This document shows positions 1,815-41,077 of a stretch of 41,232 bases of DNA, one piece after another. Position 1 is the stretch's first letter; every line of letters begins with the position of its first letter. This DNA is from an uncultured Gammaproteobacteria bacterium (GTDB lineage: Bacteria; Patescibacteriota; Microgenomatia; UBA12405): assembly GCA_964405765.1 (NCBI GenBank), contig CAYOPC010000004.1, positions 1 through 41,232 of the forward strand, in the 5' to 3' direction. The notes under the pieces are model-generated. The model ran no database searches. It was not told the origin of the DNA and saw only the letters and a list, made by a program, of their open reading frames with translations. Position numbers and translations under genes: made by a program.

Positions 1815-3620
1815 CTAGCTTTTTTTGATTTGGACCTTGGATAATTCAGAAAGCAGTTTATTATACTCTTTTTCGACGGCGGCGAGTTTGTCTTCGTCAC
1901 CATTATTTTCTAATTGGGCAATTTGACTACTAAGAAAATTTAACTTATCTTTTAGATAAAAAGTGTCAAGAATGGCGACAGTTTTTTGAATTTCTAAAAG
2001 GCGCTGGCGAGATTCAATAGGATTGACGGTGGTTTCTAAATAAATTGATTGAAAAACAGAATGAATTTCAGCCGGGAGTAAACTTTCAAATGATTTTGGG
2101 TTGAATTCGTTAATTTTTAATAAATTATTGCCAATTATTTGAAAACGATGGTCCTGAAGACGGGAAATTTGAGCGGTAATTTTTTTGGCCACTTTGACAG
2201 GATTTTTGGCACCAATAATTAAGGTTAATAAAAGTTGCTCAAATTTTTCAGTTTTGGAAGATTCGACCGGAATATTTGGTTTTGGGGTAAGGTTAAGTAG
2301 GGACCCACCAACAGCTGCCGCAGTTTTGGTGGGCAGGTTTTTTTGAGCTTCTTCAAGAATAGCCTGATAATCGGAACCGATTTCGTTGGCTAGTTTTTTG
2401 AGATAATCGGAGCGAATGACAGAATTTTTGATTTTAACTAAAAAGGGCAAAACTATATTTAAGATTTCTTTTTTACCTTTGACAGTATCAGGGTTATTTA
2501 TTTTAACTTGGGATTGGATAATAAAATCCCAGATAGAAACGGTTTGGTCGAGTTGGGTTTTGAAAAATTCTAAATCGTTTCTGACGGCTTCGTCAGGGTC
2601 TTTGTATTTGTCGCCTAAAGTGAGAACTTTAATGTCAAATTCCATAGAATCGGCAAGTTCGATACTTTTACGGGAGGCATTGGAACCGGCAAAATCAGAA
2701 TCAAGCCCCAAAATAAGAGTGTCGGTGTAACGACGAAGAAGTTGGAGTTGTTCCTCGGTAAAGGCAGTACCTTTGATGGCAACAATATTTTTAATACCGG
2801 CTTGGAAAGGAGAAATCATATCGAACTCACCTTCGGTAACAATGACAGTATTAAGTTGTCTAATAAAATCCTTGGCCAGATGGAGGCCAAAAAGATTGAA
2901 ACTTTTGTGGTAAATTTCAGTTTCAGGAGAATTGATATATTTGCCGGAGTCCTGGTTTTTGGTAGTAGGTAACATGCGACCAGAAAAACCTAAGATCCGG
3001 CCGCGATAATCGGAAAGAGGAAAAGTCAGACGACCCTGAAAACGGTCGTAAATTCGGGAATTGTATTGGCTCTGGCCAAAAGTGCCGGAAGCAATGAGAT
3101 CGGCGATCTTATAACCTTTTTTAGTTAAAAAATTAACAGTAATGGCGGGATTTTCGGGAGAATAACCCAAACCAAATTGTTTAATGGTGGTTAAATTAAT
3201 GCCCCTTTTGGTAACATAATCAAGAGCATTTTTCCCTAATGGATGAGATAAAAACATGTATTGATAAAATTTTTCAACTTGAGCATTTAGATCCATTAAA
3301 ACTTTTTTGCGGGAATCCTGCTTATTATCAAATTCGCTTTTTTTGAGAACGATACCGGCAATAGTAGCCAATTCGACTAAGGCTTCACGAAAATCAATCC
3401 GCTCATATTCCTGGACAAAAGTAAAAACATCACCGGATTTGCCGCAACCGAAACATTTAAAAATCTGAAGTTCTTCGGAGACGGTAAATGAGGGAGTCTT
3501 TTCGCCATGAAAAGGACAGCAAGCAATGTGATTGCGACCACGCTTTTTGAGAGGCAGGAAACGATTAATAACATCGACAATGTTGAGTTTTTGTTTGATT
3601 TCTTCGACCTGATTCTCCAC
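1815..3620 (-). CDS. dnaG: DNA primase DnaG
   Basis: Zinc-finger motif CPFHGEKTPSF...CFGCG and TOPRIM motif VTEGEFD. GTG start. 601 aa. Confidence 0.92.
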   Translation of the reverse strand: MENQVEEIKQKLNIVDVINRFLPLKKRGRNHIACCPFHGEKTPSFTVSEELQIFKCFGCGKSGDVFTFVQEYERIDFREALVELATIAGIVLKKSEFDNKQDSRKKVLMDLNAQVEKFYQYMFLSHPLGKNALDYVTKRGINLTTIKQFGLGYSPENPAITVNFLTKKGYKIADLIASGTFGQSQYNSRIYDRFQGRLTFPLSDYRGRILGFSGRMLPTTKNQDSGKYINSPETEIYHKSFNLFGLHLAKDFIRQLNTVIVTEGEFDMISPFQAGIKNIVAIKGTAFTEEQLQLLRRYTDTLILGLDSDFAGSNASRKSIELADSMEFDIKVLTLGDKYKDPDEAVRNDLEFFKTQLDQTVSIWDFIIQSQVKINNPDTVKGKKEILNIVLPFLVKIKNSVIRSDYLKKLANEIGSDYQAILEEAQKNLPTKTAAAVGGSLLNLTPKPNIPVESSKTEKFEQLLLTLIIGAKNPVKVAKKITAQISRLQDHRFQIIGNNLLKINEFNPKSFESLLPAEIHSVFQSIYLETTVNPIESRQRLLEIQKTVAILDTFYLKDKLNFLSSQIAQLENNGDEDKLAAVEKEYNKLLSELSKVQIKKS

Positions 3621-3633
3621 TGGCTAATTATAC

Positions 3634-3757
3634 CTCAATCTCCCCTTAATCCCCTCTTTCACAAGAGGGGAAAATAAAACCCCTCAGCCCCGACTAAAGT
3701 CGGGACAGCTCCCTCGCCTCGAATCCGAGTTGGAGCGGGCATTGAAAAATAGAGGGC
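3634..3757 (+). repeat. two abutting palindromic repeat units (type A + type B with nested hairpin)
   Basis: CAATCTCCCC..CCCCTCTTTCACAAGAGGGGAAAA, followed by AAACCCCTCAGCCCCGACTAAAGTCGGGACAGCTCCCT[CGCCTCGAATCCGAG..]. Nearly the same string recurs at 21936..22017. Confidence 0.85.
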
Positions 3758-3773
3758 TTTAAGACAATAATTA

Positions 3774-10128: not shown

Positions 10129-10131
10129 AAC

Positions 10132-10177
10132 AAACCCTAACCCTACCCTTTCCCTTGACAGGGCAAGGGTAAAAAAA
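10132..10177 (+). repeat. palindromic repeat unit (type C)
   Basis: AAACCCTAACCCTACCCTTTCCCTTGACAGGGCAAGGGTAAAAAAA. Confidence 0.9.
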
Positions 10178-10197
10178 TAACCCCGAAAACGGAGTTA
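10171..10197 (-). terminator. rho-independent terminator downstream of the recombinase gene
   Basis: The minus strand reads TAACTCCG-TTTT-CGGGGTTA followed by TTTTTTT. Confidence 0.55.
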
Positions 10198-13497: not shown

Positions 13498-13502
13498 CAA
13501 AA

Positions 13503-15537: not shown

Positions 15538-15613
15538 ACACCTTAGTTTATAAGAGCCGAGGTCAGGTAGTCCCGCAGCGGCGGGACGAAGGGGCGCTAG
15601 GCAGACAAAAATA

Positions 15614-16295: not shown

Positions 16296-16742
16296 TTATT
16301 GAGTAATTTGATAGAAAAGCCTGTCAACGTCGGGCCGAACAGGGTCGAGTTGGTGGGCTTTTTTGATGGAATCGATGGCTAAGTTATTTTCACCTAAAAG
16401 GGACTGAGATTTGGCAAGCTCGATATAATCATCGGCAGTTTTTTGATTATTAACGGCGAGTTGATCAATTTTCTTTTGAAGTTCCTGGGGTTGATGGTTT
16501 AGTTTGTAAGTAATTACTTGATCGGGATTTAATTTATTTTCTAGAGTGGCAGCATGAGCCCAATCCCCATTTTGAACTAAAAGATGCCAAAAATCGAGAC
16601 GACCTAGATAACTGGTACTACCAACTAAACTGGATAAATTAATTTTGGCTTGGGTGTATTTGTCCGGTTTTTTTTGGGAAGAATAGAAATTAGTGGTAAG
16701 AAGAGTGATTAAAATCAGAATAACGAATATTTTAGATTTCAT
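16296..16742 (-). CDS. secreted or membrane-anchored hypothetical protein (TPR-like C-terminus)
   Basis: The ATG at 16742 gives MKSKIFVILILITLL.. (signal/anchor). The C-terminal YIELAKSQSLLGENNLAIDSIKKAHQLDP is TPR-like. Confidence 0.5.
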   Translation of the reverse strand: MKSKIFVILILITLLTTNFYSSQKKPDKYTQAKINLSSLVGSTSYLGRLDFWHLLVQNGDWAHAATLENKLNPDQVITYKLNHQPQELQKKIDQLAVNNQKTADDYIELAKSQSLLGENNLAIDSIKKAHQLDPVRPDVDRLFYQITQ

Positions 16743-16743
16743 A

Positions 16744-16792
16744 CTCAATCTTCCCCTATTCCCCCTTCTTTCACAAGACGGGGGTAAAACAA
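16744..16792 (+). repeat. palindromic repeat unit (type A)
   Basis: CTCAATCTTCCCCTATTCCCCCTTCTTTCACAAGACGGGGGTAAAACAA. Confidence 0.9.
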
Positions 16793-16804
16793 TTCCTTTT
16801 ATAA

Positions 16805-19150
16805 TTAATTTTTACCTGTAGGCCAGGAGGAAGAAATTAAAAGTTCTTTGGGTAAATTATACTGGGAAATTAGGTCTTGATAAACAGTTTCGGTGATAAA
16901 AGGAATAAAGGGATGAAGTAGTTTGAGACAGGTTATTAAGACTGTTAATAAAACTGAAACAATAATTTCGGCATTTGATTTGTCCGAATATTCGGGTGAA
17001 TCAAGTCTTTTTTTGGCGCCTTCGATATAGATATCACAAAATTCGTGCCAAAAAAATTGGTAAAGGTCTTCGCTGGCTTGGCCAAAACGATAATTATTTA
17101 AATTTTTGGTAGTGGAAATAATTAAATCATTAAGTTTGGTGAGAATAGATTGATCAGCTTGATTCAAACCCTTCCCCAACCCTTCCCTTGACAGGGCAGG
17201 GAGATCTAATGTGGAAATTTTGAGGTCGGGATTGGTTTCGCGGAGGCGGTCGATAAGCATTTCGACAAAGCGGGAGGCGTTCCAAATTTTGTTAACGAAA
17301 TTGCGTTGGGCGCGGATTTTATCTTCGGAAACGACAAAATCACTAGCCGGAGCAATACCATAAACCAGAGACATACGGAGAGCATCAGTGCCATATTTTT
17401 CGGTCATATCAAGCGGATTAATGACATTGCCTTTGGATTTACTCATTTTTTGGCCTTTGGCATCGGTAACTTTGGAGTGAAGATGAACAGTTTTGAAAGG
17501 AACATCACCAGTTAGATAAAGACCAAACATGGTCATGCGAGCGACCCAAAAAAATAAAATGTCCCACAAAGTGTCCATGACGGTGGTGGGGTAAAAATAA
17601 TCAAAATCAGGGGAAGATTTAGAAGGATCAGTGGTGTTGAATTCAAGAGTACTGAGAGGCCATTGGCCACTTAAAAACCAAGTATCAAAAGTATCAGTTT
17701 CCTGAATTAAATTTTTGGACTGACATTTGGGACAAGAATCAAGATGTTCGACAGTAAAATTAGTACCGACAGGGGCAACTAAGGATTGCAGACCATTATT
17801 AATTTCATCAAAAGAATATTTATCTTTTAAATCACGATAAAAACCAGAAACTATATTCTTATTTTTGTCGAGAAAATTTAATTTGATGTCAGGATGACAA
17901 TCTAAACAATACCAAGCCGGAATACGAGGTCCCCAAACAATCTGACGGGATATGTTCCAATCACGAATATTTTCCATCCAAGTAGTAAAGGATTTTTTGA
18001 AACGAACGGGGAAAAATTTGAGTTTGCCAGTTTTGGCAGCGTCGATAGCGGGCTTGGCAAGGGAATCGATTTTGACATACCATTGAGGAGCAGTGATAGG
18101 TTCGATGGGGTGGCCACAACGATAACAATGACCAACTTCATGAGAATAGTTTTTAATTTTTTCCATGAAACCGGCGGCAGTTAAGTCGTCGATAACCATT
18201 TGGCGAAGCTTCTGGGGGTAAAAACCACGATATTTTTCGGGGACATTGTTGTTGGATTTACCGTCGTAATCGAAGATGCGAACAAACTCTAAATTGTGTT
18301 TTTTGGCCATGTCATAATCTTCGGGAGAATGAGACGGAGTGACTTTAACAGCACCGGTACCAAATTCCATATCAATAGTATCTTCCCCTATTACAGGGAT
18401 TTCTTTGTTGACTAATGGGAGAGTAACGGTTTTATCAATTAAATTCCTATATCTTTCGTCCTTGGGATTAACAGCGACAGCAGTATCGCCAAGCATGGTT
18501 TCGGGACGGGTAGTAGCAACAGTTATGGGGCCATATTTAATGTACCAAAGATGAGAGTCGACAGTTTTATGATCAACTTCGAGATTGGAAAAAGCAGTGC
18601 CGCAACGAGTACAGTAATTAACGATTTTTTCATCGCGATATACCAGACCATCCTGATAAAGTTTTTTGAAAGTAGCTAAAACATTTTCGACAATGGCTGG
18701 TTCTAAACTGTAGTGATAACGAGTCCAATCCATAGAAAAACCGAGTTTCTTCATTTGGAATTGATTTAGTTTTCGGTTATCTTCGACAAAATCCCAAATC
18801 ATTTGGTAAAGAGTTTGGCGATCAAAATCAAAACGACTTTTGCCCTCTTTGGCTAATCTTTTTTCAAAAACAAATTGGGTTTCAATACCGGCGTGATCAC
18901 CACCCGGCAACCAAAGAGTGGGTTGACCAAGCATGCGGTGGAAACGGACTAAAATATCTTGGATAGTGAACAGAGCGTGACCCATGTGCATGGGATCGTT
19001 GGCATTGGGAAGTGGAAGAATTATGGAATAAGGATTATCTTTAATTTTGGCAACTTTGGGATTTTTGGGGACTTTGGGAGTGAAGGCGCCAGAATTTTGC
19101 CAAAGGTCGTAAATTTGGGCCTCAGATGCGGGATTGTAAACTTTGTCCAT
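16805..19150 (-). CDS. valS: valine--tRNA ligase (short form, no long C-terminal coiled coil)
   Basis: PLPNANDPMHMGHAL (HIGH-type), WLPGGDHAGIETQ and KMSKSKGN, with a CP1 editing-domain-sized insert. 781 aa. Confidence 0.88.
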   Translation of the reverse strand: MDKVYNPASEAQIYDLWQNSGAFTPKVPKNPKVAKIKDNPYSIILPLPNANDPMHMGHALFTIQDILVRFHRMLGQPTLWLPGGDHAGIETQFVFEKRLAKEGKSRFDFDRQTLYQMIWDFVEDNRKLNQFQMKKLGFSMDWTRYHYSLEPAIVENVLATFKKLYQDGLVYRDEKIVNYCTRCGTAFSNLEVDHKTVDSHLWYIKYGPITVATTRPETMLGDTAVAVNPKDERYRNLIDKTVTLPLVNKEIPVIGEDTIDMEFGTGAVKVTPSHSPEDYDMAKKHNLEFVRIFDYDGKSNNNVPEKYRGFYPQKLRQMVIDDLTAAGFMEKIKNYSHEVGHCYRCGHPIEPITAPQWYVKIDSLAKPAIDAAKTGKLKFFPVRFKKSFTTWMENIRDWNISRQIVWGPRIPAWYCLDCHPDIKLNFLDKNKNIVSGFYRDLKDKYSFDEINNGLQSLVAPVGTNFTVEHLDSCPKCQSKNLIQETDTFDTWFLSGQWPLSTLEFNTTDPSKSSPDFDYFYPTTVMDTLWDILFFWVARMTMFGLYLTGDVPFKTVHLHSKVTDAKGQKMSKSKGNVINPLDMTEKYGTDALRMSLVYGIAPASDFVVSEDKIRAQRNFVNKIWNASRFVEMLIDRLRETNPDLKISTLDLPALSREGLGKGLNQADQSILTKLNDLIISTTKNLNNYRFGQASEDLYQFFWHEFCDIYIEGAKKRLDSPEYSDKSNAEIIVSVLLTVLITCLKLLHPFIPFITETVYQDLISQYNLPKELLISSSWPTGKN
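17166..17203 (+). repeat. palindromic repeat unit (type C) inside valS, in frame
   Basis: AAACCCTTCCCCAACCCTTCCCTTGACAGGGCAGGGAG, translated on the minus strand as ..LPALSREGLGKGLN.. within ValS. Confidence 0.85.
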
Positions 19151-19983: not shown

Positions 19984-20568
19984 TTGAGTGATAAAATTAG
20001 GGATATGACTCAAGAAGAAATATATAAACTTCACCAAAAATATGCCGAAGGAGAAAAGCAAAAAGAATTGTTGGATTTGGTCTGGGGACATAGCCTGATT
20101 GTCAGAGATATAGCTATGCAATTGGCCGATAATTTGATTAAAAAAGGAATAAAGATTAATAAAGAATTGGTGGAAATTGGAACATTAGTACACGACATCG
20201 GTTGTTATGATTATTATAAAAAAATTAATAATATGCCGTATATTTTGCATGGGGTAAGAGGTTATGAGATTTTGAAAAATGAGGGTTTTGAGGAAGAAAT
20301 TGCCAGAATAGCGACGATACATTTGGGTGTAGGGTTAATAAAAGAAAATGTATTGGCAAATAATTTACCATTGGAAGCAAAAGATTATATTCCAATAACT
20401 TTAGAGGAAGAATTGGTGGCTTATGCAGATAATTTTCATTCTAAGAAGGGCCCGGTTTTTATAAATTTTAGTGAAGCTAAAGAAAAATTAGCTGGTTTAT
20501 GGAGTGAATCGCCGATAATTTTTGAAAGGTTTAGGAAAAAGTTTGGAGAACCGGAAATTAAACCCTAA
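19984..20568 (+). CDS. HD/HDIG-domain metal-dependent phosphohydrolase
   Basis: H...LVHDIGCYD...H motif set. The start may be the TTG at 19984 or the ATG at 20005. The last codons and the stop lie inside repeat 20560..20602. Confidence 0.72.
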   Translation: MSDKIRDMTQEEIYKLHQKYAEGEKQKELLDLVWGHSLIVRDIAMQLADNLIKKGIKINKELVEIGTLVHDIGCYDYYKKINNMPYILHGVRGYEILKNEGFEEEIARIATIHLGVGLIKENVLANNLPLEAKDYIPITLEEELVAYADNFHSKKGPVFINFSEAKEKLAGLWSESPIIFERFRKKFGEPEIKP

Positions 20569-20602
20569 CCCTTCCCTTTCCCTTGACAGGGCAAGGGTAA
20601 AA
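20560..20602 (+). repeat. palindromic repeat unit (type C)
   Basis: AAACCCTAACCCTTCCCTTTCCCTTGACAGGGCAAGGGTAAAA. It supplies the K-P-stop end of the HD-domain ORF. Confidence 0.9.
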
Positions 20603-20671
20603 GCCAATTAGACTAGGTTGATGATATAATTTATGTGATAGAAATAGTGGAAATTAAGACAAAACCTAATG

Positions 20672-20767
20672 TTCAATCTCCCCTACCCCCTCTTTGACAC
20701 GAGGGAGAAAAGACAAACCCCTCAGTCCCTCGTTGAACTCGGGACAGCTCCCTTTGACAAGGGAGCC
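20672..20767 (+). repeat. two abutting palindromic repeat units (type A + type B)
   Basis: TTCAATCTCCCCTACCCCCTCTTTGACACGAGGGAGAAAAG, then AAACCCCTCAGTCCCTCGTTGAACTCGGGACAGCTCCCTTTGACAAGGGAGCC. Confidence 0.85.
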
Positions 20768-20782
20768 TCTAAAAGAAAAAAT

Positions 20783-21928
20783 ATGGAGATAATTGATATT
20801 AAAAATAACTATAATCAAGTAATAAAAAAAACAGCTGAAATAATTTTGGCTGGTGGATTAGTAGTGTTTCCGAGTGATACGGTTTATATTTTGGCAGTGG
20901 ATGCGACTAACGAAAATGGAGTAAAAAAGTTACTCGAATTTAAAAATAGGTGGACCGGAAAAGCCATTTCGGTAGCCGTGTTGGATGAGAAAATGGCTGA
21001 GGATTATGTGGTGTTAAATGAAAACAGCAGAAATATTTATGAAAATTTGTTGCCGGGACCGTTTACTATTGTAAGTGAAGGCAAGCATCAAGTAGCTGCC
21101 GGAATTGAGGCGGAAAATGGAACTTTGGGAATAAGAATTCCGGATAATAAATATATTCATGATTTGGTGGAATTGGTGGGTAAACCAGTGACGGCAACTT
21201 CGGCAAATTTGTCAGGGAGGACACCGAATTATTCGATTCAAAGTTTTTTGAGGCCATTGTCAAAAAAGAAAAAAGCTATGATTGATTTGATAGTTGATGG
21301 CGGTAAATTGCCAAAAAATAAACCCTCAACGGTGATTGATGCGACTGAATCGGAAATAAAAATTTTAAGACGAGGAGATTTGATTACTGGAAAAACTACC
21401 AGTTTCATTAGCAAGTCGGAAAAAGAGACAGAAAAGATTGCGGAGTTTTTGTTGAAAAGATCCAATCTTCCCCCTTCCCCCTTCTTTCACAAGACGGGGG
21501 TAAAACAAAATAAGCCGTTGGTGTTTTTATTGAGCGGAGATTTGGGTTGCGGAAAGACAGTTTTTAGCCGGAAAATAGGACATTTATTGGGAGTAAAGGA
21601 AAAGATTACTAGTCCAACTTATATGATTTATAATGAGTACAAAACCCTAACCCCCTCCCCCTTTCCCTTGACAGGGCAAGGGGAGAAAATGATCAAATTT
21701 TTACATATGGATTTGTATAAAATTACATCGGAAAAAGATTTGGAGGAAATAAAATTTCTTACTCTATTTTCTGAAGATACAGTCAGTTGTATTGAATGGC
21801 CGGAACAAATGGGAGAAAAATTTTTGAAAAAATTGAGAGAAAAAACTAAGGTAGTTTCGGTGAATTTTGAATATATAGATCAGGAGACGAGAAGTATTAG
21901 TTTCTCAGCTGATCAGTTGGTCAGATAA
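20783..21928 (+). CDS. fused L-threonylcarbamoyladenylate synthase (TsaC/YrdC domain) and t6A ATPase TsaE
   Basis: The N-terminal half has the YrdC/Sua5 pattern (GGLVVFPSDTVYILAVDA, TATSANLSG, PSTVID). The C-terminal part has the TsaE P-loop GDLGCGKT and SPTYMIYNEY...HMDLYK. I place the start at the ATG at 20783, because the 38 upstream codons are repeat-derived. Confidence 0.75.
   Translation: MEIIDIKNNYNQVIKKTAEIILAGGLVVFPSDTVYILAVDATNENGVKKLLEFKNRWTGKAISVAVLDEKMAEDYVVLNENSRNIYENLLPGPFTIVSEGKHQVAAGIEAENGTLGIRIPDNKYIHDLVELVGKPVTATSANLSGRTPNYSIQSFLRPLSKKKKAMIDLIVDGGKLPKNKPSTVIDATESEIKILRRGDLITGKTTSFISKSEKETEKIAEFLLKRSNLPPSPFFHKTGVKQNKPLVFLLSGDLGCGKTVFSRKIGHLLGVKEKITSPTYMIYNEYKTLTPSPFPLTGQGEKMIKFLHMDLYKITSEKDLEEIKFLTLFSEDTVSCIEWPEQMGEKFLKKLREKTKVVSVNFEYIDQETRSISFSADQLVR
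21462..21510 (+). repeat. palindromic repeat unit (type A) inside the tsaC-tsaE ORF, in frame
   Basis: CCAATCTTCCCCCTTCCCCCTTCTTTCACAAGACGGGGGTAAAACAAAA, translated NLPPSPFFHKTGVKQN. Confidence 0.9.
21641..21689 (+). repeat. palindromic repeat unit (type C) inside the TsaE domain, in frame
   Basis: AAAACCCTAACCCCCTCCCCCTTTCCCTTGACAGGGCAAGGGGAGAAAA, translated KTLTPSPFPLTGQGEK. Confidence 0.9.
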
Positions 21929-21935
21929 TCAGATC

Positions 21936-22017
21936 AAAACCCCTCAGCCCCGACTAAAGTCGGGACAGCTCCCTCGCCTCGAATTCGAGTCGGAGCGGGC
22001 CTTAATGAAAAGGAGCC
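21936..22017 (+). repeat. palindromic repeat unit (type B with nested hairpin)
   Basis: Near-identical to 3676..3757, differing in GAATTCGAGTCGGAG versus GAATCCGAGTTGGAG. Confidence 0.9.
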
Positions 22018-22140
22018 TTTTAAAAATTATGGTAAAATGCCTAAATTTAAAACATATGAATAATAAAGAAAATCCAAATAGAATATTAGCTCCAAAAAAG
22101 AGAGATAAGGGTAGAGAAAAATTTTGAGATGCAGATTTTA

Positions 22141-22851: not shown

Positions 22852-24123
22852 ATGAAAATATTGGCAATAGAGACGAGTTGTGATGATACTTGCGCGGCTG
22901 TTTTGGAAAACGACCGAGTGCTGTCAAACGTGATTTCATCGCAGACTGATTTGCATGCCAAATGGGGCGGAGTAGTGCCGGATATTGCTAAAAGAGCACA
23001 TACGGAGAGAATTGAGGCAGTAATTGCGGAAGCATTAAAAAGAGCAAAACCTTCCCCTTCCCTTGACCCTCCACTTCGGCGGGCAGGCAGGGTGGGGCAT
23101 AAATTATCCCCTGAAGAAATAATTGAGAGAGAAGTTAAAAATATTGATGTGATTGGGGTGACACAGGGGCCGGGGTTGGCAATTGCTTTGGGGATTGGAG
23201 TAAATAAAGCCAAAGAACTGGCGAAAAAATATAATAAAAAATTGGTGGCGGTAAATCATATTGAGGGGCATATTTGGGCAAATTTTTTGAAAAATAAAAA
23301 GGGAAAACCGGAAAGAGAATTGGAATTGCCGGCGATGGCATTGACGGTGTCAGGAGGACATACAAAAATAATACTAATTTCTAATAACCAATTTCTAAGT
23401 CAAAACCTAGAAGAACTCAATCTTCCCCCTTCCCCCTTCTTTCACAAGACGGGGGTTAAAACAAACCCTTCCCAAACCCTTCCCTTGACAGGGCAGGGCT
23501 TAAAACTCAATCTTCCCCTAACCCCTTCTTTAACAAGACGGGGAATAAAACAGAAGTTAATTTATACGGTTGTTGGAGAGACGTTGGATGATGCGGCGGG
23601 AGAGGCTTTGGATAAAGCGGCAAAAATGTTGGGGTTGGGATATCCGGGCGGACCGATTATAGAAAGATTGGCGAAAGACGGTGAGATAAATTTCTTGGAT
23701 CTTCCCCACCCACTGGCTGACAAAAAAATATTGGATTATAGTTTTTCGGGTTTAAAAACCAGTTTTTATTACAAAATAAAAGATTGGCCAAAAGAAAAAA
23801 TTTATCAAAATTTGAATAATTTGGCGGCGACTTTTCAGAATGCAGTGTTGGAAACATTATTGAGAAAATATAAATTGGCCATAGCTAGATACCAACCAAA
23901 AACGTTGCTAGCAAGCGGCGGAGTGTTGGCAAATTTGGAATTGAGAAAAAGGTTAAGAAAATTAGCCAAAGAAGTTAATTTACCAATTTATATGCCGGTC
24001 CATAAAAATTTAAATACAGATAATGCGGCCATGGTTGGAAGAGTGACATATAATAAGGCACTGATGGGAGAATATGTTGAGGATATAGACGCGTTGGATA
24101 GAGACCCGAGACTTACTATTTAA
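22852..24123 (+). CDS. tsaD: tRNA N6-adenosine threonylcarbamoyltransferase TsaD, carrying in-frame repeat insertions
   Basis: MKILAIETSCDDT, GVTQGPGL, HIEGH, SGGHT, GETLDDAAGEALDK, GYPGGP, FSGLKT. 423 aa, against about 340 aa for typical TsaD. Confidence 0.9.
   Translation: MKILAIETSCDDTCAAVLENDRVLSNVISSQTDLHAKWGGVVPDIAKRAHTERIEAVIAEALKRAKPSPSLDPPLRRAGRVGHKLSPEEIIEREVKNIDVIGVTQGPGLAIALGIGVNKAKELAKKYNKKLVAVNHIEGHIWANFLKNKKGKPERELELPAMALTVSGGHTKIILISNNQFLSQNLEELNLPPSPFFHKTGVKTNPSQTLPLTGQGLKLNLPLTPSLTRRGIKQKLIYTVVGETLDDAAGEALDKAAKMLGLGYPGGPIIERLAKDGEINFLDLPHPLADKKILDYSFSGLKTSFYYKIKDWPKEKIYQNLNNLAATFQNAVLETLLRKYKLAIARYQPKTLLASGGVLANLELRKRLRKLAKEVNLPIYMPVHKNLNTDNAAMVGRVTYNKALMGEYVEDIDALDRDPRLTI
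23046..23097 (+). repeat. palindromic repeat unit (type C with nested hairpin) inside tsaD, in frame
   Basis: AAAACCTTCCCCTTCCCTTGACCCTCCACTTCGGCGGGCAGGCAGGGTGGGG. Compare 29123..29184 and 31459..31520. Confidence 0.85.
23416..23552 (+). repeat. three abutting palindromic repeat units (A-C-A) inside tsaD, in frame
   Basis: CTCAATCTTCCCCCTTCCCCCTTCTTTCACAAGACGGGGGTTAAAACAA / AAACCCTTCCCAAACCCTTCCCTTGACAGGGCAGGGCTTAAAA / CTCAATCTTCCCCTAACCCCTTCTTTAACAAGACGGGGAATAAAACA. Confidence 0.9.
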
Positions 24124-24170
24124 TTAAGAATTAATAATTAATAGTTAATAATTAATAGTTAAGAGTTAAT
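24121..24170. repeat. AT-rich TAATTAA-type motif block
   Basis: TAATTAAGAATTAATAATTAATAGTTAATAATTAATAGTTAAGAGTTAAT. Related blocks at 24518, 26693, 31181 and 40292. Confidence 0.75.
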
Positions 24171-24513
24171 TTTTTGATGTTTTTAATATTTTAGTAATTA
24201 TCTTGATAATTTCTTCACAATCACTTATTAATGAACAACTTTGAGTTTGATTTAAATAACCACTTTTGTTTAACAAATTAATCCAATAAAGAGTTTCTCT
24301 TGATTCTTTATAGGCGACAGAGATTTTAGAAATAAAGTCTTTTTTGGATTGACCGCCAAGAGCTTCTTGAATATTTGCTCCGATTGACGTGCCACTTCTG
24401 AGTAATTGTTTGGATAAAATAAATTCTTTTTTATTTTCTTTAAGATATTTATAGAGATTAATTATTCTGAGAGCAAAATCAAAACTTTTTTGAGAGACAA
24501 TACTGTCTTTCAT
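24166..24513 (-). CDS. four-helix-bundle protein (23S rRNA intervening-sequence protein family)
   Basis: SFDFALRIINLYKYL....LSKQLLRSGTSIGANIQEA....DFISKISVAYKESRETLYWINLL is the hallmark pattern of this family. Confidence 0.85.
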   Translation of the reverse strand: MKDSIVSQKSFDFALRIINLYKYLKENKKEFILSKQLLRSGTSIGANIQEALGGQSKKDFISKISVAYKESRETLYWINLLNKSGYLNQTQSCSLISDCEEIIKIITKILKTSKN

Positions 24514-26257: not shown

Positions 26258-26674
26258 TTAAAAACGGTTATCCATGGCCTGATTGGCTAGTTGGTCAGCT
26301 AATTTATTAAATTCACGGCGAACATGGGTGTATTTGATGGGTAGATTGATTTGAGTAAGTAATTGTTGAACTTGGGCAAAGAGGGGTAAGAGGGTTGGGG
26401 CTTTAACTTTATAGATGCCTTGAAGTTGACGAATCATGAGCTGAGAGTCGGCAAAAAAATTTACCTGAGAAATCCGATAAAGGGTTTGGTGTTTTTTAAC
26501 CCATTCCAGAGCAGCAATAATACCAGAATATTCAGCTTCATTGTTGGTTTTTATGCCCAAAAATTTTTCTTCCTGATAAAGCGGTTTATTTTGATCGTCG
26601 TAAATAACTAAGCCATAACCGGAAACACCCGGATTACCCCGAGAACCACCATCAGTATAGACATTGATAAGCAT
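26258..26674 (-). CDS. rnhA: ribonuclease HI
   Basis: VYTDGGSRGNPG, TNNEAEYSGIIAAL, DSQLMIRQ and the C-terminal NKLADQLAN catalytic pattern (D-E-D-D). Confidence 0.88.
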   Translation of the reverse strand: MLINVYTDGGSRGNPGVSGYGLVIYDDQNKPLYQEEKFLGIKTNNEAEYSGIIAALEWVKKHQTLYRISQVNFFADSQLMIRQLQGIYKVKAPTLLPLFAQVQQLLTQINLPIKYTHVRREFNKLADQLANQAMDNRF

Positions 26675-26692
26675 AAGAAATGATAACAGGAA

Positions 26693-26729
26693 AATAATTA
26701 CTAATTAATAATTAAGAATTAATAGTTAA
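26693..26729. repeat. AT-rich AATTAATAATTAAGAATTAAT motif
   Basis: AATAATTACTAATTAATAATTAAGAATTAATAGTTAA, 18 nt upstream of the rnhA start and abutting repeat 26728. Confidence 0.75.
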
Positions 26730-29122: not shown

Positions 29123-29184
29123 AAACCTTAACCCGACCCTGTTTCCTAACCCTCCACTTCGGCAGGCAGGGCAAGGGTAAAAAA
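29123..29184 (+). repeat. palindromic repeat unit (type C with nested hairpin)
   Basis: AAACCTTAACCCGACCCTGTTTCCTAACCCTCCACTTCGGCAGGCAGGGCAAGGGTAAAAAA. Confidence 0.85.
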
Positions 29185-29191
29185 TAAAAAT

Positions 29192-31179: not shown

Positions 31180-31180
31180 A

Positions 31181-31216
31181 TTAATTAATAATTAAGAATT
31201 AATAATTAATATTAAT
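31181..31216. repeat. AT-rich AATTAATAATTAAGAATTAAT motif
   Basis: TTAATTAATAATTAAGAATTAATAATTAATATTAAT, starting 2 nt upstream of the comF-like ATG. Confidence 0.75.
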
Positions 31217-31217
31217 A

Positions 31218-31520
31218 CACAATCTCCCCCTAACCCCCTTCTTTGACCCACCGACAGTTTCTCAGTCTGGTGGGCAGGCAAGAGGGGGAATCAAAACCCC
31301 TCAGGCTCGCTTTTCTCGCCAGCTCCCCTTGATAAAGGGGAGCAATTTTTCTTTATAGTGTCCGTGGTAGGATGAGGATAAAACCCTTTGTCACGATAAA
31401 TCGTGACATTTCTCCCGCAGTAGCGGGACTTACGCCTTAAAAAGGGAAACTTTAAAATAAACCCTAACCCTTCCCTTTCCCTTGACCCTCCAGAGGCGGG
31501 CAGGCAGGGCAAGGGTAAAG
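31218..31520 (+). repeat. cluster of four palindromic repeat units (A-nested, B, E-nested, C-nested)
   Basis: Units at about 31218..31296, 31293..31343, 31380..31450 and 31459..31520. Three of them carry an extra hairpin inserted in their own loop. Confidence 0.85.
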
Positions 31521-31577: not shown

Positions 31578-32035
31578 GGAGATGTATTGCATCGACGGAG
31601 CATGAACTTTAAAAAACGGCAAGCCGACTTTGATCCATTGAGTCGTTTCGTCCATAGGACGATCAGCCTCTGGCTGAAAACAGGGTTAAAACAAAAAATG
31701 CTAAAGAAAAACTTAGCAAGTTAGCTACCGATTTCACTGCCTATTTAGGTAAGGTTGCCGGTACTTCTTATCAACCAGCTTTGGCTGTTTGCTAAGAGAC
31801 TCATCACTTAGTTTTCTGTTTCGAGGGGAATTGGGTGGTGTAAATTAAATCGAAATGCAATCTCGATCTTCTCGGTTAGATCGTGGATTAAAGCGAGGGG
31901 TAATGCCCTCAACAATCGACATCCCGACACATTTTATGAATTTCTGTCGTCGGGAGTGTAGGTCAAAATTCTTTAAGCTTGTAGATGTTTTTTTGAGTCT
32001 GCTTTCGGACCCGGGTTCGTTACCTGGCATCTCCG
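31578..32035 (+). ncRNA. ssrA: tmRNA (SsrA)-like RNA
   Basis: 5' GGAGATG pairs with 3' CATCTCC. The 5' box GCATCGACGGAG resembles the tmRNA GGATTCGACGGG box. T arm is CCGGG-TTCGTTA-CCTGG. An internal frame ends ..YQPALAVC-TAA (stop at 31793..31795). smpB lies 4.2 kb away. Confidence 0.72.
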
Positions 32036-32040
32036 CCTTC

Positions 32041-36681: not shown

Positions 36682-36815
36682 AAACCTCTCTGTCCCTCGA
36701 CGAGCTCGGGACATCTCCCCTTAAAAAAGGGAGAAGTCTTTAAGACAAAACCCACCCTTTGATTTAAACCCCTCAGACTCGCTTTGCTCGTCAGCTCCCT
36801 TTGATTAAGGGGAGC
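36682..36815 (+). repeat. palindromic repeat units (type D, short remnant, type B)
   Basis: AAACCTCTCTGTCCCTCGACGAGCTCGGGACATCTCCCCTTAAAAAAGGGAGAAGTC ... AAACCCCTCAGACTCGCTTTGCTCGTCAGCTCCCTTTGATTAAGGGGAGC. The 3' flank TTATAGTTTGCCAGTGGCAGACTGAGG resembles 31353..31378. Confidence 0.85.
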
Positions 36816-36860
36816 AATTTTTTTTATAGTTTGCCAGTGGCAGACTGAGGTTTGTAATTT

Positions 36861-37142
36861 TTAAAATTTACAAACTAATTCACAAACAGCTGCACAAAAA
36901 CCCCCAGGTGAATGACGACAGGGGGAAGTACAGGAATCGAACTGACCCAAAACAGAAGCACAAAGAAAAGAAAGTTTATAACTACCAGACCGCATTAAAT
37001 AACATTCATTATATTCAGAAGAATATTTTCCCCCAATACTAAGACAGGTGTTTTTAAATCTAGATCTTTGAAAAAGAATATAAATAATAATTAAGACTAT
37101 TACAGATAGAATACTTAGAAAAAATTTTAATTTTTTGGGCAT
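36861..37142 (-). CDS. small membrane-anchored 8-cysteine protein (paralog 1)
   Basis: 93 aa with an N-terminal TM anchor. The conserved C-terminus SC.SPCRHSPGG.C...CE.VCKF is shared with the neighbouring ORF. Confidence 0.6.
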   Translation of the reverse strand: MPKKLKFFLSILSVIVLIIIYILFQRSRFKNTCLSIGGKYSSEYNECYLMRSGSYKLSFLCASVLGQFDSCTSPCRHSPGGFCAAVCELVCKF

Positions 37143-37179: not shown

Positions 37180-37452
37180 TTAAAATTTACAAACTTGTTC
37201 ACACATAGTAATACAGACACCTCCTGGTGAATGGCGGCAAGGTGAGGCACAGGAACTATATTCGCTACCAGTTAGAGTACACAACAATCTGAGGACCTTA
37301 CCACCTTGACATTCGCGATAATCAGAAAGATATTTACCGCCACTAAGAGTACAGATTGTTGAAGGTTGATATTTTTTGAGAAAAATACCAAACAAATAAA
37401 GAAATAAAAATATTATTGGAATAATTAAAAGATATTTTATTTTTTTTGACAT
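37180..37452 (-). CDS. small membrane-anchored 8-cysteine protein (paralog 2)
   Basis: 90 aa with the same architecture and the same eight Cys positions as 36861..37142. Starts 6 nt after the stop of the 612-aa gene. Confidence 0.6.
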   Translation of the reverse strand: MSKKIKYLLIIPIIFLFLYLFGIFLKKYQPSTICTLSGGKYLSDYRECQGGKVLRLLCTLTGSEYSSCASPCRHSPGGVCITMCEQVCKF

Positions 37453-40468: not shown

Positions 40469-41017
40469 TTAAAAATTAATCAAATGGTTTAACTGTAATA
40501 GATTTTTGATTTGGGAGGCGATGAAGTTGGCGTTGGATTTGGGAGGAAGGTGAAGAAAAATTTGTTTGGTGTTGAGATGTTTTTGGTTAATATGAAGTTG
40601 AATAGAATAGGCCATCCAATTACAATTATAAGTACCCATGTTGGAACTGATGGCAAAAAATTGAGAGTCGAAATTATCGAGTGGCGGCAAACTTAGATCG
40701 AGAAGAATGGGAGAAAAAGGATAAATCGGTTGATTATTGTAAGCATTTTTGGCTTGGGTTTCGATACGAATTTTGGAGAAATTACCATATATATCACCAA
40801 GACCGATAATCAGGTCATAATGGTTGTGGGCAATGTATTTTTGAAAAAATTGGCGAGGGTGAAAATAAATTAATTGATAAACCCTTTCCGCCAGAGGCGG
40901 ATTTCCCTTAAAAAGGGCAATTTTATCTTTTTCTTCTAGAATTTTTTGTAATTCTAGTAAAGTTCGGTGAGAAATGTTGGTGCCCCATTGATTGGAAAAA
41001 GCATAGATTAGGATCAT
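40469..41017 (-). CDS. pyroglutamyl-peptidase I (C15)-like protein carrying an in-frame repeat unit
   Basis: DLIIGLGDIYGNFSKIRIETQAKN, SSNMGTYNCNWMAY and IFLHLPP resemble the C15 pattern (..lG.a.gr..i..Er.A.N.., ..S..AGtyvCN..Y.., ..FiHvP). Confidence 0.45.
   Translation of the reverse strand: MILIYAFSNQWGTNISHRTLLELQKILEEKDKIALFKGNPPLAERVYQLIYFHPRQFFQKYIAHNHYDLIIGLGDIYGNFSKIRIETQAKNAYNNQPIYPFSPILLDLSLPPLDNFDSQFFAISSNMGTYNCNWMAYSIQLHINQKHLNTKQIFLHLPPKSNANFIASQIKNLLQLNHLINF
40879..40918 (+). repeat. palindromic repeat unit (type E) inside the C15-like ORF, in frame
   Basis: AAACCCTTTCCGCCAGAGGCGGATTTCCCTTAAAAAGGGC, translated on the minus strand as ALFKGNPPLAERV. Confidence 0.85.
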
Positions 41018-41061
41018 AAACCCTATCCCTACCCTTTCCCTTGACAGGGCAAGGGTAAAAA
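41018..41061 (+). repeat. palindromic repeat unit (type C)
   Basis: AAACCCTATCCCTACCCTTTCCCTTGACAGGGCAAGGGTAAAAA, starting 1 nt after the C15-like start codon. Confidence 0.9.
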
Positions 41062-41077
41062 CAAAAATTTAATTAAT

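What the first reader, a model, noticed from the sequence alone, without database searches (positions are those of the whole stretch)
23046..23552. tsaD carries four palindromic repeat units translated in frame
The tsaD ORF (22852..24123) is uninterrupted but holds four copies of the window's short palindromic repeats. One type-C unit with a nested hairpin lies at 23046..23097. It is translated ~KPSPSLDPPLRRAGRVGH and sits between the HTERIEAV helix and the GVTQGPG motif. Three abutting units (A-C-A) lie at 23416..23552. They are translated ~LNLPPSPFFHKTGVKTNPSQTLPLTGQGLKLNLPLTPSLTRRGIKQ and sit between SGGHT and GETLDDAAGEALDK. Canonical TsaD has only short loops at these places (E. coli: SGGHTQL...LGESIDDAAGEAFDK). 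The same nucleotide units occur in intergenic DNA elsewhere in the window. The DNA element therefore looks primary, and an essential enzyme tolerates about 65 extra residues. This is the behaviour known for Rickettsia palindromic elements.
Basis: partly seen in the sequence, partly recalled or inferred. Interest (0 to 1): 0.8.

Follow-up and report, generated by a model that had tools for sequence, protein, structure and literature searches.

The report
In-frame hairpin repeats inside tsaD
An essential tRNA-modification gene of an uncultured Shapirobacteria (CPR) bacterium carries five copies of the genome's own 20-50-base hairpin repeats, read through in frame as about 64 extra residues in two surface loops. 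The same thing recurs in many housekeeping genes of this lineage, much like the palindromic elements of Rickettsia.

Summary
The ORF at 22852..24123 is a bona fide TsaD: it scores 329 bits against TIGR03723, and the metal-binding His/His/Asp residues are intact. Close relatives have a 341-aa baseline protein; this one has 423 aa.

All the extra sequence sits at two loop positions.
- **Site 1** holds a type-C unit with a 21-nt micro-unit nested in its loop.
- **Site 2** holds an AT-rich repeat remnant followed by units A-C-A.

Units of the same families occur about 20 more times in the window, always on the + strand. Most are intergenic. Three are in frame in other genes: two in a TsaC-TsaE fusion and one, antisense, in ValRS.

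Relatives carry different unit families at exactly the same two TsaD sites, and at two TsaE sites.

A metagenome scan found 50 of 119 type-C copies inside long ORFs. Five of the six reading frames are used. Hosts include RNR, PheRS-beta, DnaG, MiaA and RadA.

The units change less than the synonymous sites of their host genes.

The 423-aa architecture was assembled independently five times, so it is not an assembly artefact.

The best reading is an RPE/REP-like family of DNA-level hairpin elements, tolerated and probably translated in permissive loops. How they move is unknown. I found no report of this in CPR bacteria. Translation itself was not tested.

The parts
22852..24123 (+). tsaD coding sequence, 423 aa, uninterrupted. 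It hosts all the units listed below.
   Evidence: ORF list. TIGR03723 329 bits. PDB TsaD hits. H136, H140 and D390 are invariant in alignment A1.
23046..23097 (+). Site-1 insert: a type-C hairpin unit carrying a nested micro-unit. It is translated KPSPSLDPPLRRAGRVG and lies after helix 43-64.
   Evidence: pLDDT is below 50 for residues 69-81.
23068..23088 (+). Nested 21-nt micro-unit 'N' (CCTCCACTTCGGCGGGCAGGC), inserted after the TTGAC loop of the type-C unit. It adds PPLRRAG. Its boundary is ambiguous by 1 nt.
   Evidence: It is absent from the orthologous unit in L001 and L006. The same unit follows TTGAC at 31248 and 31487 and in L175.
23383..23415 (+). Remnant of an AT-rich heptamer tandem repeat (CAATTTC-like), translated NNQFLSQNLEE, at the start of the site-2 insert.
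   Evidence: Relatives have expanded versions at the same place, read as FSIFNFQFS or LISNDQFL.
23413..23464 (+). Site-2 unit A1 (type A), translated (E)LNLPPSPFFHKTGVK. It is found only in this species-level cluster, so it is a young insertion.
   Evidence: nhmmer E=4.5e-15. 39/39 identical to the copy at 21463-21501. Hairpin z=-2.4.
23461..23508 (+). Site-2 unit C (type C), translated TNPSQTLPLTGQGLK.
   Evidence: nhmmer E=2.5e-12. The same unit sits at the same site in L001, L028 and L139, with 0-1 differences in 39 nt.
23503..23552 (+). Site-2 unit A2 (type A, older and more diverged), translated LNLPLTPSLTRRGIKQ.
   Evidence: nhmmer E=4.6e-14. The peptide NLPLTPSLTR(R/G)G occurs at the same site in P0002-P0004, P0007 and P0023.
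21458..21509 (+). Type-A unit in frame in the TsaC-TsaE fusion, just before the TsaE P-loop (SNLPPSPFFHKTGVKQN).
21642..21692 (+). Type-C unit in frame in the TsaE part, after the SPTY motif (TLTPSPFPLTGQGEK).
   Evidence: Nucleotide-level conservation is shown.
17163..17211 (+). Type-C unit inside valS (16805..19150, minus strand), read antisense as LDLPALSREGLGKGL.
   Evidence: Pfam tRNA-synt_1 plus Anticodon_1.
10131..10178 (+). Intergenic type-C unit between convergent genes.
16742..16793 (+). Intergenic type-A unit.
20558..20775 (+). Intergenic cluster of units C (20558-20606), A (20669-20717) and S (20717-20775), upstream of the likely tsaC-tsaE start at 20786.
   Evidence: Synteny with relatives starts near 20784.
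3632..3769 (+). Intergenic cluster of a type-A unit plus the 94-nt double-hairpin unit D8. A second D8 copy lies at 21933-22029.
29143..29187 (+). Intergenic degenerate type-C unit with a nested N unit.
31215..31519 (+). Intergenic cluster upstream of the tmRNA gene: type A with a nested 33-nt N-like unit, then D13, further hairpins, then type C with nested N.
36684..36824 (+). Intergenic S and D13 units. Further S units lie at 4424-4475, 5101-5158 and 40418-40474.
41016..41064 (+). Intergenic type-C unit.

Best explanation
**What is there.** The window comes from a Candidatus Shapirobacteria (Microgenomates, CPR) genome. This genome is colonised by a superfamily of very short, GC-rich hairpin repeats set in otherwise AT-rich DNA.
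- A type-C unit is about 38-42 nt: AAACCC-TWMCCC-NNN-CCC(T)TTCCC-TTGAC-AGGGCA(A)GGG.
- Type A is about 48 nt.
- The nested micro-unit N is about 21 nt.
- Families S, D8 and D13 carry two hairpins.

**How they behave.** They are DNA-level elements that multiply or are copied within the genome. They land next to each other, giving abutting clusters, and inside each other's loops (N after TTGAC).

**Why they persist in genes.** Their C/G-rich sequence leaves five of six reading frames free of stop codons. A copy whose net length is a multiple of three, landing in a permissive surface loop, does not break the gene and can persist.

**What happened in TsaD.** Two such places have accumulated units:
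- the loop after the long N-terminal helix (after ALKRAK);
- the tip of the beta-hairpin after the SGGHT turn.

The result is one C unit with nested N at site 1, and a repeat remnant plus A-C-A at site 2. About 64 unit-encoded residues are added. They are most likely translated as disordered Pro/Ser/Leu/Gly-rich loops on an otherwise normal, functional TsaD.

**Shown versus inferred.**
- Shown: repeat identity, in-frame status, loop position, recurrence in relatives and in other genes, and nucleotide-level conservation.
- Inferred: translation, tolerance by the enzyme, and mobility.
- Speculative: the copying mechanism. Strand bias, absence of a target duplication and insertion 3' of TTGAC would fit a single-strand, hairpin-recognising HUH/Y1-type enzyme.
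For: **Repeats are real and non-random.**

**All 22 window copies are on the + strand whatever the direction of neighbouring genes.** With the copies in the syntenic tsaD loci the count is 85/85. Across independent metagenome loci, 168 of 204 lie on the G-rich strand.

**TsaD identity and intact catalytic residues.**

**Relatives vary only at these two sites.** Thirty-seven close TsaD relatives range from 341 to 490 aa. Apart from one sequence with a long N-terminal extension (P0080) and an 8-residue insertion in P0099, all the length variation falls at the same two sites, and the insert peptides recur.

**Relatives' inserts match repeats elsewhere in their own contigs.** Seen in L002, L003, L006, L013 and L028.

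**Empty and filled sites can be compared at the DNA level.** The 21-nt N unit is present in the window and absent from the L001 ortholog.

**TsaE shows the same hot-spot pattern.**

**Type-C copies are common inside ORFs.**
- 50 of 119 metagenomic copies lie in stop-free stretches with at least 40 codons on each side; 29 are sense and 21 antisense.
- Five frames are used.
- Hosts include RNR, PheRS-beta, DnaG, RadA-like, MiaA and a GT1 glycosyltransferase.

**Units change less than host synonymous sites.**
- TsaE C unit, window vs L006: 1/48 differences against 77/300 in the flanks; third positions 0/16 against 44/100, p=4e-4.
- tsaD site-2 C unit: 0-1/39 differences.

**Structure.**
- In the AF2 model, residues 69-81 and 182-232 have pLDDT below 50 and are coil between regular elements.
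- The core matches solved TsaD with TMt 0.84.
- From published structures, the tRNA-contacting tip (residues 39-45) and the SGGH turn are about 20 residues and 7-10 residues away from sites 1 and 2 respectively (PMC13276492; PMC6009658).

**Not an artefact.** The 423-aa protein occurs in five independent assemblies.

**Frame is always kept.** Every insert seen in relatives' tsaD genes is in frame: 13 at site 1 and 10 at site 2.
Against: - No expression data exist, so translation of the units is inferred only from frame preservation.
- No transposase could be tied to units A or C. None is in the window. RAYT-like Y1 genes exist in relatives L003, L187, L136 and L094, but the L003 gene is flanked by a different hairpin family.
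- No target-site signature could be defined beyond A-rich flanks.
- The strong nucleotide conservation and the strand bias are not what a purely decaying selfish insert would predict. They leave room for a host function or for ongoing homogenisation.
- The AF2 model rests on a shallow alignment (mean pLDDT 72). Low confidence in the inserts is not proof of disorder or of surface exposure.
- Site 1 adjoins the helix that forms the TsaB interface, so it may not be functionally neutral.
Confidence: 0.8

Rival explanations
1. The units are host-functional nucleic-acid signals kept by selection, including inside genes, rather than passive or selfish inserts. Possible roles are a protein-binding or structural DNA/RNA hairpin in the manner of REP/BIME, or a hairpin/G-quadruplex switch. 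This is not exclusive of the best explanation.
For: - The units are nearly invariant at synonymous positions while their host genes diverge.
- There is a strong strand bias relative to GC skew.
- A mid-stem T.C mismatch is conserved in families A, C and N.
- All 7 canonical G4 motifs on the minus strand of the window are type-C units.
Against: - Different unit families replace each other at the same site in close relatives, and many relatives have no unit there at all. No particular unit is therefore needed at a given site.
- Copies occur in every intergenic context (divergent, convergent, tandem) and in both sense and antisense within genes.
- Recent or repeated insertion, or gene conversion, would explain the conservation equally well.
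Confidence: 0.2
2. The units are not part of the mature protein. They are removed from the mRNA, or skipped by the ribosome as in mitochondrial byp elements or T4 gene 60.
For: - Mobile GC-rich hairpin inserts of 27-55 nt are bypassed in Magnusiomyces mitochondria. This rests on my own knowledge; papers holding the search terms are listed, but none was read.
- No expression data are available here.
Against: - Every insert seen in tsaD of the window and its relatives keeps the frame and has no stop: 13 site-1 and 10 site-2 inserts of many different lengths. The same holds in TsaE.
- In-ORF type-C copies use only frames free of stop codons. Removal or bypass would impose neither constraint.
- Rfam finds no intron or ribozyme at these positions.
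- The units are far too short for inteins.
Confidence: 0.04
3. The inserts are selected protein modules, for example new interaction or linker loops, and their DNA repetition is secondary.
For: - Some inserts are old and shared. NLPLTPSLTRRG occurs in many TsaD relatives, and TLTPxPFPLTGQGEK in several TsaE relatives.
- Next to site 1, a lineage-specific 'EEIIEREVKN' segment is modelled as a confident helix.
Against: - The same DNA is abundant in intergenic regions, and it is read in five different frames that give unrelated peptides.
- The one variable codon inside the TsaE unit gives S, C, V, I or D.
- Unit families swap freely at a given site.
- Conservation is at the nucleotide level, including third positions, not the peptide level.
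Confidence: 0.06
4. Assembly chimera or pseudogene: the repeats were mis-joined into tsaD, or the gene is decaying.
For: Short repeats can mislead metagenome assemblers.
Against: - The identical 423-aa architecture occurs in five independent assemblies from NCBI, JGI and ENA.
- Orthologous units occur in many other MAGs.
- The ORF is intact with all invariant catalytic residues.
Confidence: 0.01

Closest known systems
Rickettsia palindromic elements (RPE). They were first described by Ogata et al. 2000, which I cite from memory, and are summarised in PMC10969869.
   Same: - Dispersed palindromic repeats found both between genes and in frame inside unrelated housekeeping ORFs.
- Nearly half the copies are intragenic, compared with 42% here.
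- Insert positions are compatible with the host fold.
- The copying mechanism is unknown.
- The host has a small, AT-rich genome.
   Different: - RPEs are about 100-150 bp and encode 30-50 residues; these units are 21-52 nt and encode 7-17.
- The host phylum is different, and sequence relatedness was not tested.
- Here the units concatenate and nest, and the same loop sites are re-used by different families in different relatives.
- Copies are strongly strand-biased and better conserved than host synonymous sites.
REP/BIME elements and their RAYT (Y1/HUH) transposases (PMC3733652 for REP features; RAYT biology from my own knowledge).
   Same: - 20-40-nt imperfect GC-rich palindromes with a conserved mismatch.
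- High copy number and clustering.
- RAYT-like genes do exist in related contigs.
   Different: - REPs are by definition extragenic, carry a GTAG or CGTC tag, and usually occur in both orientations or as inverted pairs.
- Units A and C lack the tag, are largely co-oriented, and are frequently intragenic.
- No RAYT was found flanked by A or C units.
Small dispersed repeats (SDR) of filamentous cyanobacteria (Elhai et al. 2008, cited from memory; not found in the paper library).
   Same: - Very short palindromic units of about 21-27 nt.
- They insert into each other and into conserved genes without destroying them. The 21-nt N unit nested in a C unit behaves this way.
   Different: - Different host and different sequences.
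- Here the larger 40-50-nt units dominate.
- The re-use of the same protein-loop hot-spots is prominent.
GC-rich hairpin elements of AT-rich organelle genomes: yeast mitochondrial GC clusters, sponge RHEs (PMC2800124) and Magnusiomyces byps.
   Same: - GC-rich mobile hairpins in compact AT-rich genomes.
- They invade intergenic DNA and sometimes coding sequence.
   Different: - They are organellar.
- Byps break the frame and are skipped by the ribosome, whereas these units always keep the frame.
Intragenic enterobacterial repeat units and MITEs (ERIC, RU-1/2/3; PMC2759123).
   Same: Small repeats carrying open frames that occasionally form in-frame fusions with host genes.
   Different: - They are 100-170 bp with terminal inverted repeats and target duplications.
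- Intragenic copies are rare exceptions rather than about 40% of copies.

Membership tests
TsaD (tRNA t6A37 threonylcarbamoyltransferase) | Scores above the curated cut-off of the equivalog model, and has the ASKHA fold of solved TsaD structures. | tested here: met
   TIGR03723 gives 329.1 bits against a cut-off of 296.1. Foldseek against 8iey, 4ydu and 6n9a gives TMt 0.80-0.84.
TsaD (tRNA t6A37 threonylcarbamoyltransferase) | Metal-binding HxxxH and Asp, the SGGH turn and the GGVVP tip are all conserved. | tested here: met
   H136, H140, D390, S167-H170 and G39-P43 are invariant in alignment A1. The roles of these motifs are taken from PMC13276492.
Rickettsia palindromic elements (RPE) | A palindromic repeat found both in intergenic DNA and in frame inside unrelated ORFs. 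| tested here: met
Rickettsia palindromic elements (RPE) | Unit length of about 100-150 bp, encoding a conserved peptide of 30-50 residues. | tested here: not met
   The units are 21-52 nt. The RPE size is taken from PMC10969869.
Rickettsia palindromic elements (RPE) | Sequence similarity to an RPE family consensus. | not tested
   No RPE sequence library was available. The host is Shapirobacteria, not Rickettsia.
REP/BIME (RAYT-associated) | Short (20-40 nt) imperfect GC-rich palindrome in many copies. | tested here: met
REP/BIME (RAYT-associated) | GTAG or CGTC tag at one end of the palindrome (PMC3733652). | tested here: not met
   The logo built from 136 type-C copies shows no such tag at either end. 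A separate GTAG-tagged hairpin exists at 15567-15592 and 32036-32061 (I6).
REP/BIME (RAYT-associated) | Extragenic location. | tested here: not met
   50 of 119 type-C copies lie inside long ORFs.
REP/BIME (RAYT-associated) | A cognate RAYT gene flanked by the repeats. | tested here: inconclusive
   There is no transposase in the window. RAYT-like genes occur in L003, L187, L136 and L094. The L003 gene is flanked by a different hairpin family. L187 has one type-C copy about 85 nt upstream.
MITE | Terminal inverted repeats plus a target-site duplication. | tested here: not met
   The N insertion compared with the empty ortholog has at most 1 nt of boundary ambiguity and no duplication. The units are single hairpins with asymmetric flanks.
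Translational-bypass inserts (byp / T4 gene 60 type) | The insert breaks the frame or carries stop codons and is skipped by the ribosome. | tested here: not met
   All inserts are in frame and free of stop codons.
Introns / inteins | A ribozyme structure, or intein splicing motifs and a sufficient size. | tested here: not met
   Rfam at gathering thresholds finds only a tmRNA and three tRNAs in the window. The units encode only 7-17 residues.

The most novel reading that the evidence does not exclude
The units may not be passive passengers. They could belong to an active system that recognises structure.

**Possibility 1: a site-specific insertion or conversion system.** It would target A-rich loop codons and the loops of earlier units, for example 3' of TTGAC. 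It would keep copies nearly identical and would swap unit families at fixed 'cassette' positions. The effect would be continuous diversification of surface loops of essential proteins in CPR bacteria. A single-strand DNA enzyme of the HUH/Y1 type, or one of unknown type, would be the likely agent.

**Possibility 2: a functional signal within coding sequence.** The units could be hairpin/G-quadruplex signals embedded in genes and maintained by selection at the nucleotide level.
Probability: 0.2. Interest if true: 0.8.

Novelty: new member of a known kind. Interest (0 to 1): 0.55.

Why it matters
**A second clear case of a rare behaviour.** Rickettsia RPEs are the classic example of hairpin repeats riding in frame inside essential genes. 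Here the same behaviour appears at comparable frequency in a very different reduced-genome lineage, the CPR/Patescibacteria. The units are far smaller, and they stack and nest.

**Practical consequences.**
- The units inflate and diversify CPR protein lengths. TsaD ranges from 341 to 490 aa among close relatives.
- They confound alignments, domain models and structure prediction.
- They can extend ORF calls into intergenic repeats. The tsaC-tsaE ORF, for example, opens inside a unit.

**Biological interest.**
- The units mark permissive loops in essential enzymes.
- Many orthologous filled and empty sites are available, giving a natural system for asking how short hairpin repeats spread and why they are strand-biased.
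- They also allow the question of whether the repeats are selfish, structural or both.

Tried and rejected
- **Rfam.** A scan of the whole window matched no unit to any RNA family; only a tmRNA and three tRNAs were found.
- **tmRNA.** It has extra 35-nt and ~49-nt segments, but these are not A or C units.
- **Transposases.** Pfam on 39 window ORFs found none. tblastn with IS200 TnpA and E. coli RAYT sequences recalled from memory, against 1.9 Mb of loci, gave only one weak hit. That hit led to RAYT-like genes in L187, L003, L136 and L094. Their flanking hairpins in L003 belong to another family, so no link to units A or C could be made.
- **Target-site duplication.** Comparing empty and filled tsaD sites was ambiguous because of divergence. 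Only A-rich flanks and the after-TTGAC position of N were clear.
- **Strand orientation.** The absolute orientation seen in the window and syntenic loci (85/85) does not generalise. In independent loci it is an 82-84% bias.
- **Conservation test.** The six-sequence test is partly circular, because four of the sequences were found by an exact match to the unit core. I repeated it on pairs found independently of the unit.
- **Literature.** Searches for a prior description in CPR/Patescibacteria found nothing. The library is open-access only, so absence there is not proof.
- **P0126.** I considered it as an example of a recent unit swap at site 1. The whole 5' end of that gene is divergent, so it is a recombinant allele rather than a new insertion.
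Full report
**1. The observation**

The ORF 22852..24123(+) is uninterrupted and encodes 423 aa. It is TsaD. NCBIfam TIGR03723 scores 329 bits against a cut-off of 296. Solved TsaD structures (8iey, 6nak, 6n9a, 4ydu) match at E~1e-62, but in three separate stretches: query 1-67, 95-178 and 238-422. The query therefore has about 25 and 55 extra residues where the crystal structures have 3-5.

23046..23097 encodes K66-G82, and 23416..23552 encodes L189-Q234.

The four units have clear matches elsewhere in the window:
- A1 matches 21463-21501 at 39/39 and 16744-16785 at 95%.
- The C unit matches 17165-17201 at 97%.
- The site-1 unit matches 31469-31509 at 88%.

Core motifs occur 6 and 5 times against 0.00 and 0.01 expected from shuffles. 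Each unit folds into a short hairpin with a conserved mid-stem T.C mismatch.

**2. The repeats in the window**

Profile searches and direct reading define several families.
- **Type C** is about 38-42 nt. A logo from 136 copies gives AAACCC-TWMCCC-NNN-CCC(T)TTCCC-TTGAC-AGGGCA(A)GGG, with a hypervariable NNN and A-rich flanks.
- **Type A** is about 48 nt.
- **Families S, D8 and D13** carry two hairpins.
- **Micro-unit N** is 21-33 nt (CCYCC-loop-GGYGGGCAGGC). It sits inside the loops of other units, directly after TTGAC, at 23068, 31248 and 31487 in the window and in L175.

All 22 strong window copies are on the + strand, whatever the direction of neighbouring genes. They occur between divergent, convergent and tandem gene pairs. 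Units often abut, as at 3632-3769, 20558-20775 and 31215-31519.

Three further copies are in frame inside other genes:
- a type-A unit (SNLPPSPFFHKTGVKQN) in a TsaC-TsaE fusion;
- a type-C unit (TLTPSPFPLTGQGEK) in the same fusion;
- a type-C unit read antisense (LDLPALSREGLGKGL) in ValRS.

**3. Relatives**

The organism is a Candidatus Shapirobacteria (Microgenomates, CPR). This follows from the titles of the best-matching genome contigs.

Close TsaD relatives, at 69-87% identity over aligned columns, range from 341 to 490 aa. The 341-aa proteins have no insert. Apart from one sequence with a long N-terminal extension (P0080) and an 8-residue insertion in P0099, all the length variation falls at exactly the same two positions: after ALKRAK, and after GGHTKIILI. 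Insert peptides recur across relatives, for example NLPLTPSLTRRG, TLPLTGQG, NPSVLRTAPLDEREQ, SSLKEGRKSL and FLISNFQF.

At the DNA level, relatives' inserts match repeats elsewhere in their own contigs.

The unit orthologous to site 1 in L001 and L006 lacks the 21-nt N segment. N is therefore a secondary insertion with at most 1 nt of boundary ambiguity and no target duplication.

Site 2 of the window has a composite history:
- a remnant of an AT-rich heptamer repeat, which is expanded in relatives;
- A2, an older unit shared with P0002-4, P0007 and P0023;
- the C unit, shared with L001, L028 and L139;
- A1, a young unit found only in the window's 90% cluster and identical to the TsaE copy.

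The TsaE moiety shows the same pattern. It has two hot-spot sites filled by different unit families in different relatives and empty in others.

**4. Generality**

Of 119 copies away from contig ends, 50 lie in stop-free stretches with at least 40 codons on each side. For comparison, 67% of random positions do. Of the 50, 29 are sense and 21 antisense, and five of the six frames are used. The sixth frame contains the TGA of TTGACA.

Pfam identifies the hosts as ordinary housekeeping proteins: ribonucleotide reductase, PheRS beta, DnaG, a RadA-like ATPase, MiaA, a GT1 glycosyltransferase, a TraG/VirB4-like ATPase and DUF4012 proteins.

The in-frame habit is therefore a property of this element family in this lineage, not of tsaD alone.

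**5. Is the DNA element primary?**

Four lines of evidence say it is.
- The same DNA yields unrelated peptides in different frames.
- Unit families swap at a given protein site.
- The one variable codon inside the TsaE unit encodes S, C, V, I or D.
- The units are better conserved than their hosts' synonymous sites.

On the last point, for a pair found independently of the unit (window vs L006), the TsaE C unit has 1/48 differences against 77/300 in the flanks. Third positions differ at 0/16 against 44/100 (p=4e-4). The tsaD C unit has 0-1/39 differences.

The six-sequence version gives 0/16 against 62/80, but it is partly circular because four of the sequences were found through the unit core.

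This conservation could reflect selection on the nucleic-acid structure, repeated insertion at a hot-spot, or gene conversion. I could not separate these.

**6. Tolerance by the enzyme**

The invariant columns of the TsaD alignment include the metal ligands H136, H140 and D390, the SGGH turn and the GGVVP tip.

The AlphaFold model has mean pLDDT 72 from a shallow alignment. Its low-confidence coil falls exactly at residues 69-81 and 182-232, between helix 43-64 and helix 87-97, and between strands 170-177 and 237-244. Its core superposes on solved TsaD structures with TMt 0.80-0.84.

Published structures allow a rough placement of the sites (PMC13276492; PMC6009658).
- tRNA is held by the tip of the alpha1-alpha2 hairpin (residues 39-45), helix alpha7 and the SGGH turn.
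- Site 1 lies at the far (C-terminal) end of the long helix.
- Site 2 lies at the distal tip of the beta-hairpin that follows SGGH.

Both are therefore plausibly peripheral. This placement is an inference, not a measurement.

The same 423-aa protein occurs in five independent assemblies, which excludes an assembly chimera.

**7. Mechanism**

The existence, in-frame state, loop position, recurrence and conservation of the units are shown. Translation is inferred from frame preservation: all 13 site-1 and 10 site-2 inserts seen in relatives keep the frame. That would not be required if the units were spliced out or bypassed.

How the units are copied is unknown. The hints are:
- a strand bias: 85/85 in the window and syntenic loci, and 168/204 on the G-rich strand in independent loci;
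- no target duplication;
- nesting 3' of TTGAC;
- imperfect hairpins with a fixed mismatch.

These would fit a single-strand, hairpin-recognising HUH/Y1 enzyme. RAYT-like genes do occur in relatives L003, L187, L136 and L094. However, the L003 gene is flanked by another hairpin family, and the window contains no transposase. I rate this mechanism at about 0.3.

**8. Comparison with what is known**

The behaviour matches Rickettsia palindromic elements, which are ~150-bp palindromic repeats with nearly half their copies in frame inside ORFs (PMC10969869). The units are not RPE members: their size fails that criterion, and sequence relatedness was not tested.

They resemble REPs in size and shape but fail the extragenic criterion and the GTAG/CGTC-tag criterion (PMC3733652). 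They are not MITEs, since they have no terminal inverted repeats or target duplication. They are not bypass elements, introns or inteins.

The nested 21-nt unit recalls cyanobacterial small dispersed repeats (cited from memory). GC-rich hairpins in an AT-rich compact genome recall mitochondrial GC clusters.

I found no description of this in CPR bacteria in the searchable literature.

**9. Verdict**

I classify the finding as a new member of a known kind: short palindromic repeats carried in frame within genes.

Its distinctive features are very small modular units, stacking and nesting, re-use of the same loop sites by different families, strand bias, and conservation above the synonymous background. 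Interest is 0.55.

Noticed in passing
window 13338-13558: A tRNA-like gene appears to be split by a duplication. An exact 38-nt direct repeat (TGGTTAGAGCAGTCCGAAATTTCGGACGAGTCCATGGT, at 13354-13391 and 13503-13540) flanks an intact tRNA-Ile(TAT) at 13424-13498. The outer halves (GGGTATGTAGCTCAGT... and ...CTGAGTCCATGCATACCCA) would together form one tRNA-like molecule with a perfectly palindromic anticodon arm. ARAGORN does not call it.
   Followed up: partly
window 31578-32038 (+): Rfam finds a tmRNA gene here (67 bits), but ARAGORN misses it. It is 461 nt against a 374-position model, with extra segments of 35 and about 49 nt that are not A or C units. Directly upstream lies the densest repeat cluster of the window (31215-31519). 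A hairpin family follows at 32036-32061; its reverse complement starts with GTAG, and an inverted copy lies at 15567-15592.
   Followed up: partly
window 20669-21928 (+): TsaC (Sua5/YrdC) and TsaE are fused in one ORF next to tsaD. The mechanical ORF starts inside a type-A unit at 20669. Homology with relatives starts near 20784, so the true start is probably the ATG at 20786. Repeat units without stop codons can therefore extend ORF calls.
   Followed up: partly
window 2305-2338, inside dnaG (1815..3620, minus strand); also L197:2671-4467: An N-like hairpin (CCCACC...GGTGGGCAGG followed by T7) lies in frame, antisense, in the DnaG linker after the DnaB-binding domain (about aa 425-440). A metagenomic DnaG (L197) carries a type-C unit at about the same place (aa 432). 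This may be another hot-spot.
   Followed up: partly
window minus strand: 10135-10154, 17169-17187, 20563-20582, 21645-21667, 23466-23484, 31462-31488, 41021-41040: All seven canonical G-quadruplex motifs (four G3+ runs with loops of 1-7 nt) on the minus strand are type-C units. The plus strand has only one such motif, at 26374-26400. The C-rich 5' half of several units reads like telomeric CCCTAA repeats. The hairpin and the G4 would compete for the same G runs.
   Followed up: no
L003:7100-7882; L187:2697-3234; L136; L094: RAYT-like (IS200/Y1-type) transposase genes occur in related contigs. The L003 gene lies between tsaD and the VanW gene. It is preceded by three tandem copies of a hairpin (GAGACGCCCAGGTTGGTCGTCTC) and carries an inverted copy of that hairpin in frame within its own coding sequence (VETTNLGVS). 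The L187 gene is broken at a palindrome, GGGGCGTATTGCAATACGCCCC.
   Followed up: partly
window 24166-24513 (-) compared with L005 and L006: The small gene for a 23S-rRNA-intervening-sequence protein (PF05635), downstream of tsaD, lies in the opposite orientation in relatives L005 and L006. It is absent from that position in L001 and L003.
   Followed up: no
window 24110-24176, 26677-26729, 31171-31209, 40287-40325: AT-only 14-nt periodic arrays (TTAATAATTAAGAATTAATAGTTAA-like) sit just outside gene ends. Related AT-rich heptamer repeats are translated inside relatives' TsaD and TsaE as FLISNFQF or QISDLRSQ.
   Followed up: no
L199 (P0126) and P0125 compared with window tsaD: Members of the same 90% protein cluster are mosaics. 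P0126 has the window's site-2 A-C-A array, but its 5' end is divergent and carries an S-type unit at site 1. P0125 diverges only in the C-terminal third. Homologous recombination therefore shuffles unit-bearing gene segments between strains.
   Followed up: partly
window 36851-36936 and 37170-37255: An 86-nt direct repeat (77% identical, start-to-start spacing 319 nt) overlaps the start regions of two adjacent minus-strand ORFs of about 90 aa with no Pfam match (36861..37142 and 37180..37452). This is probably a tandem gene duplication.
   Followed up: no
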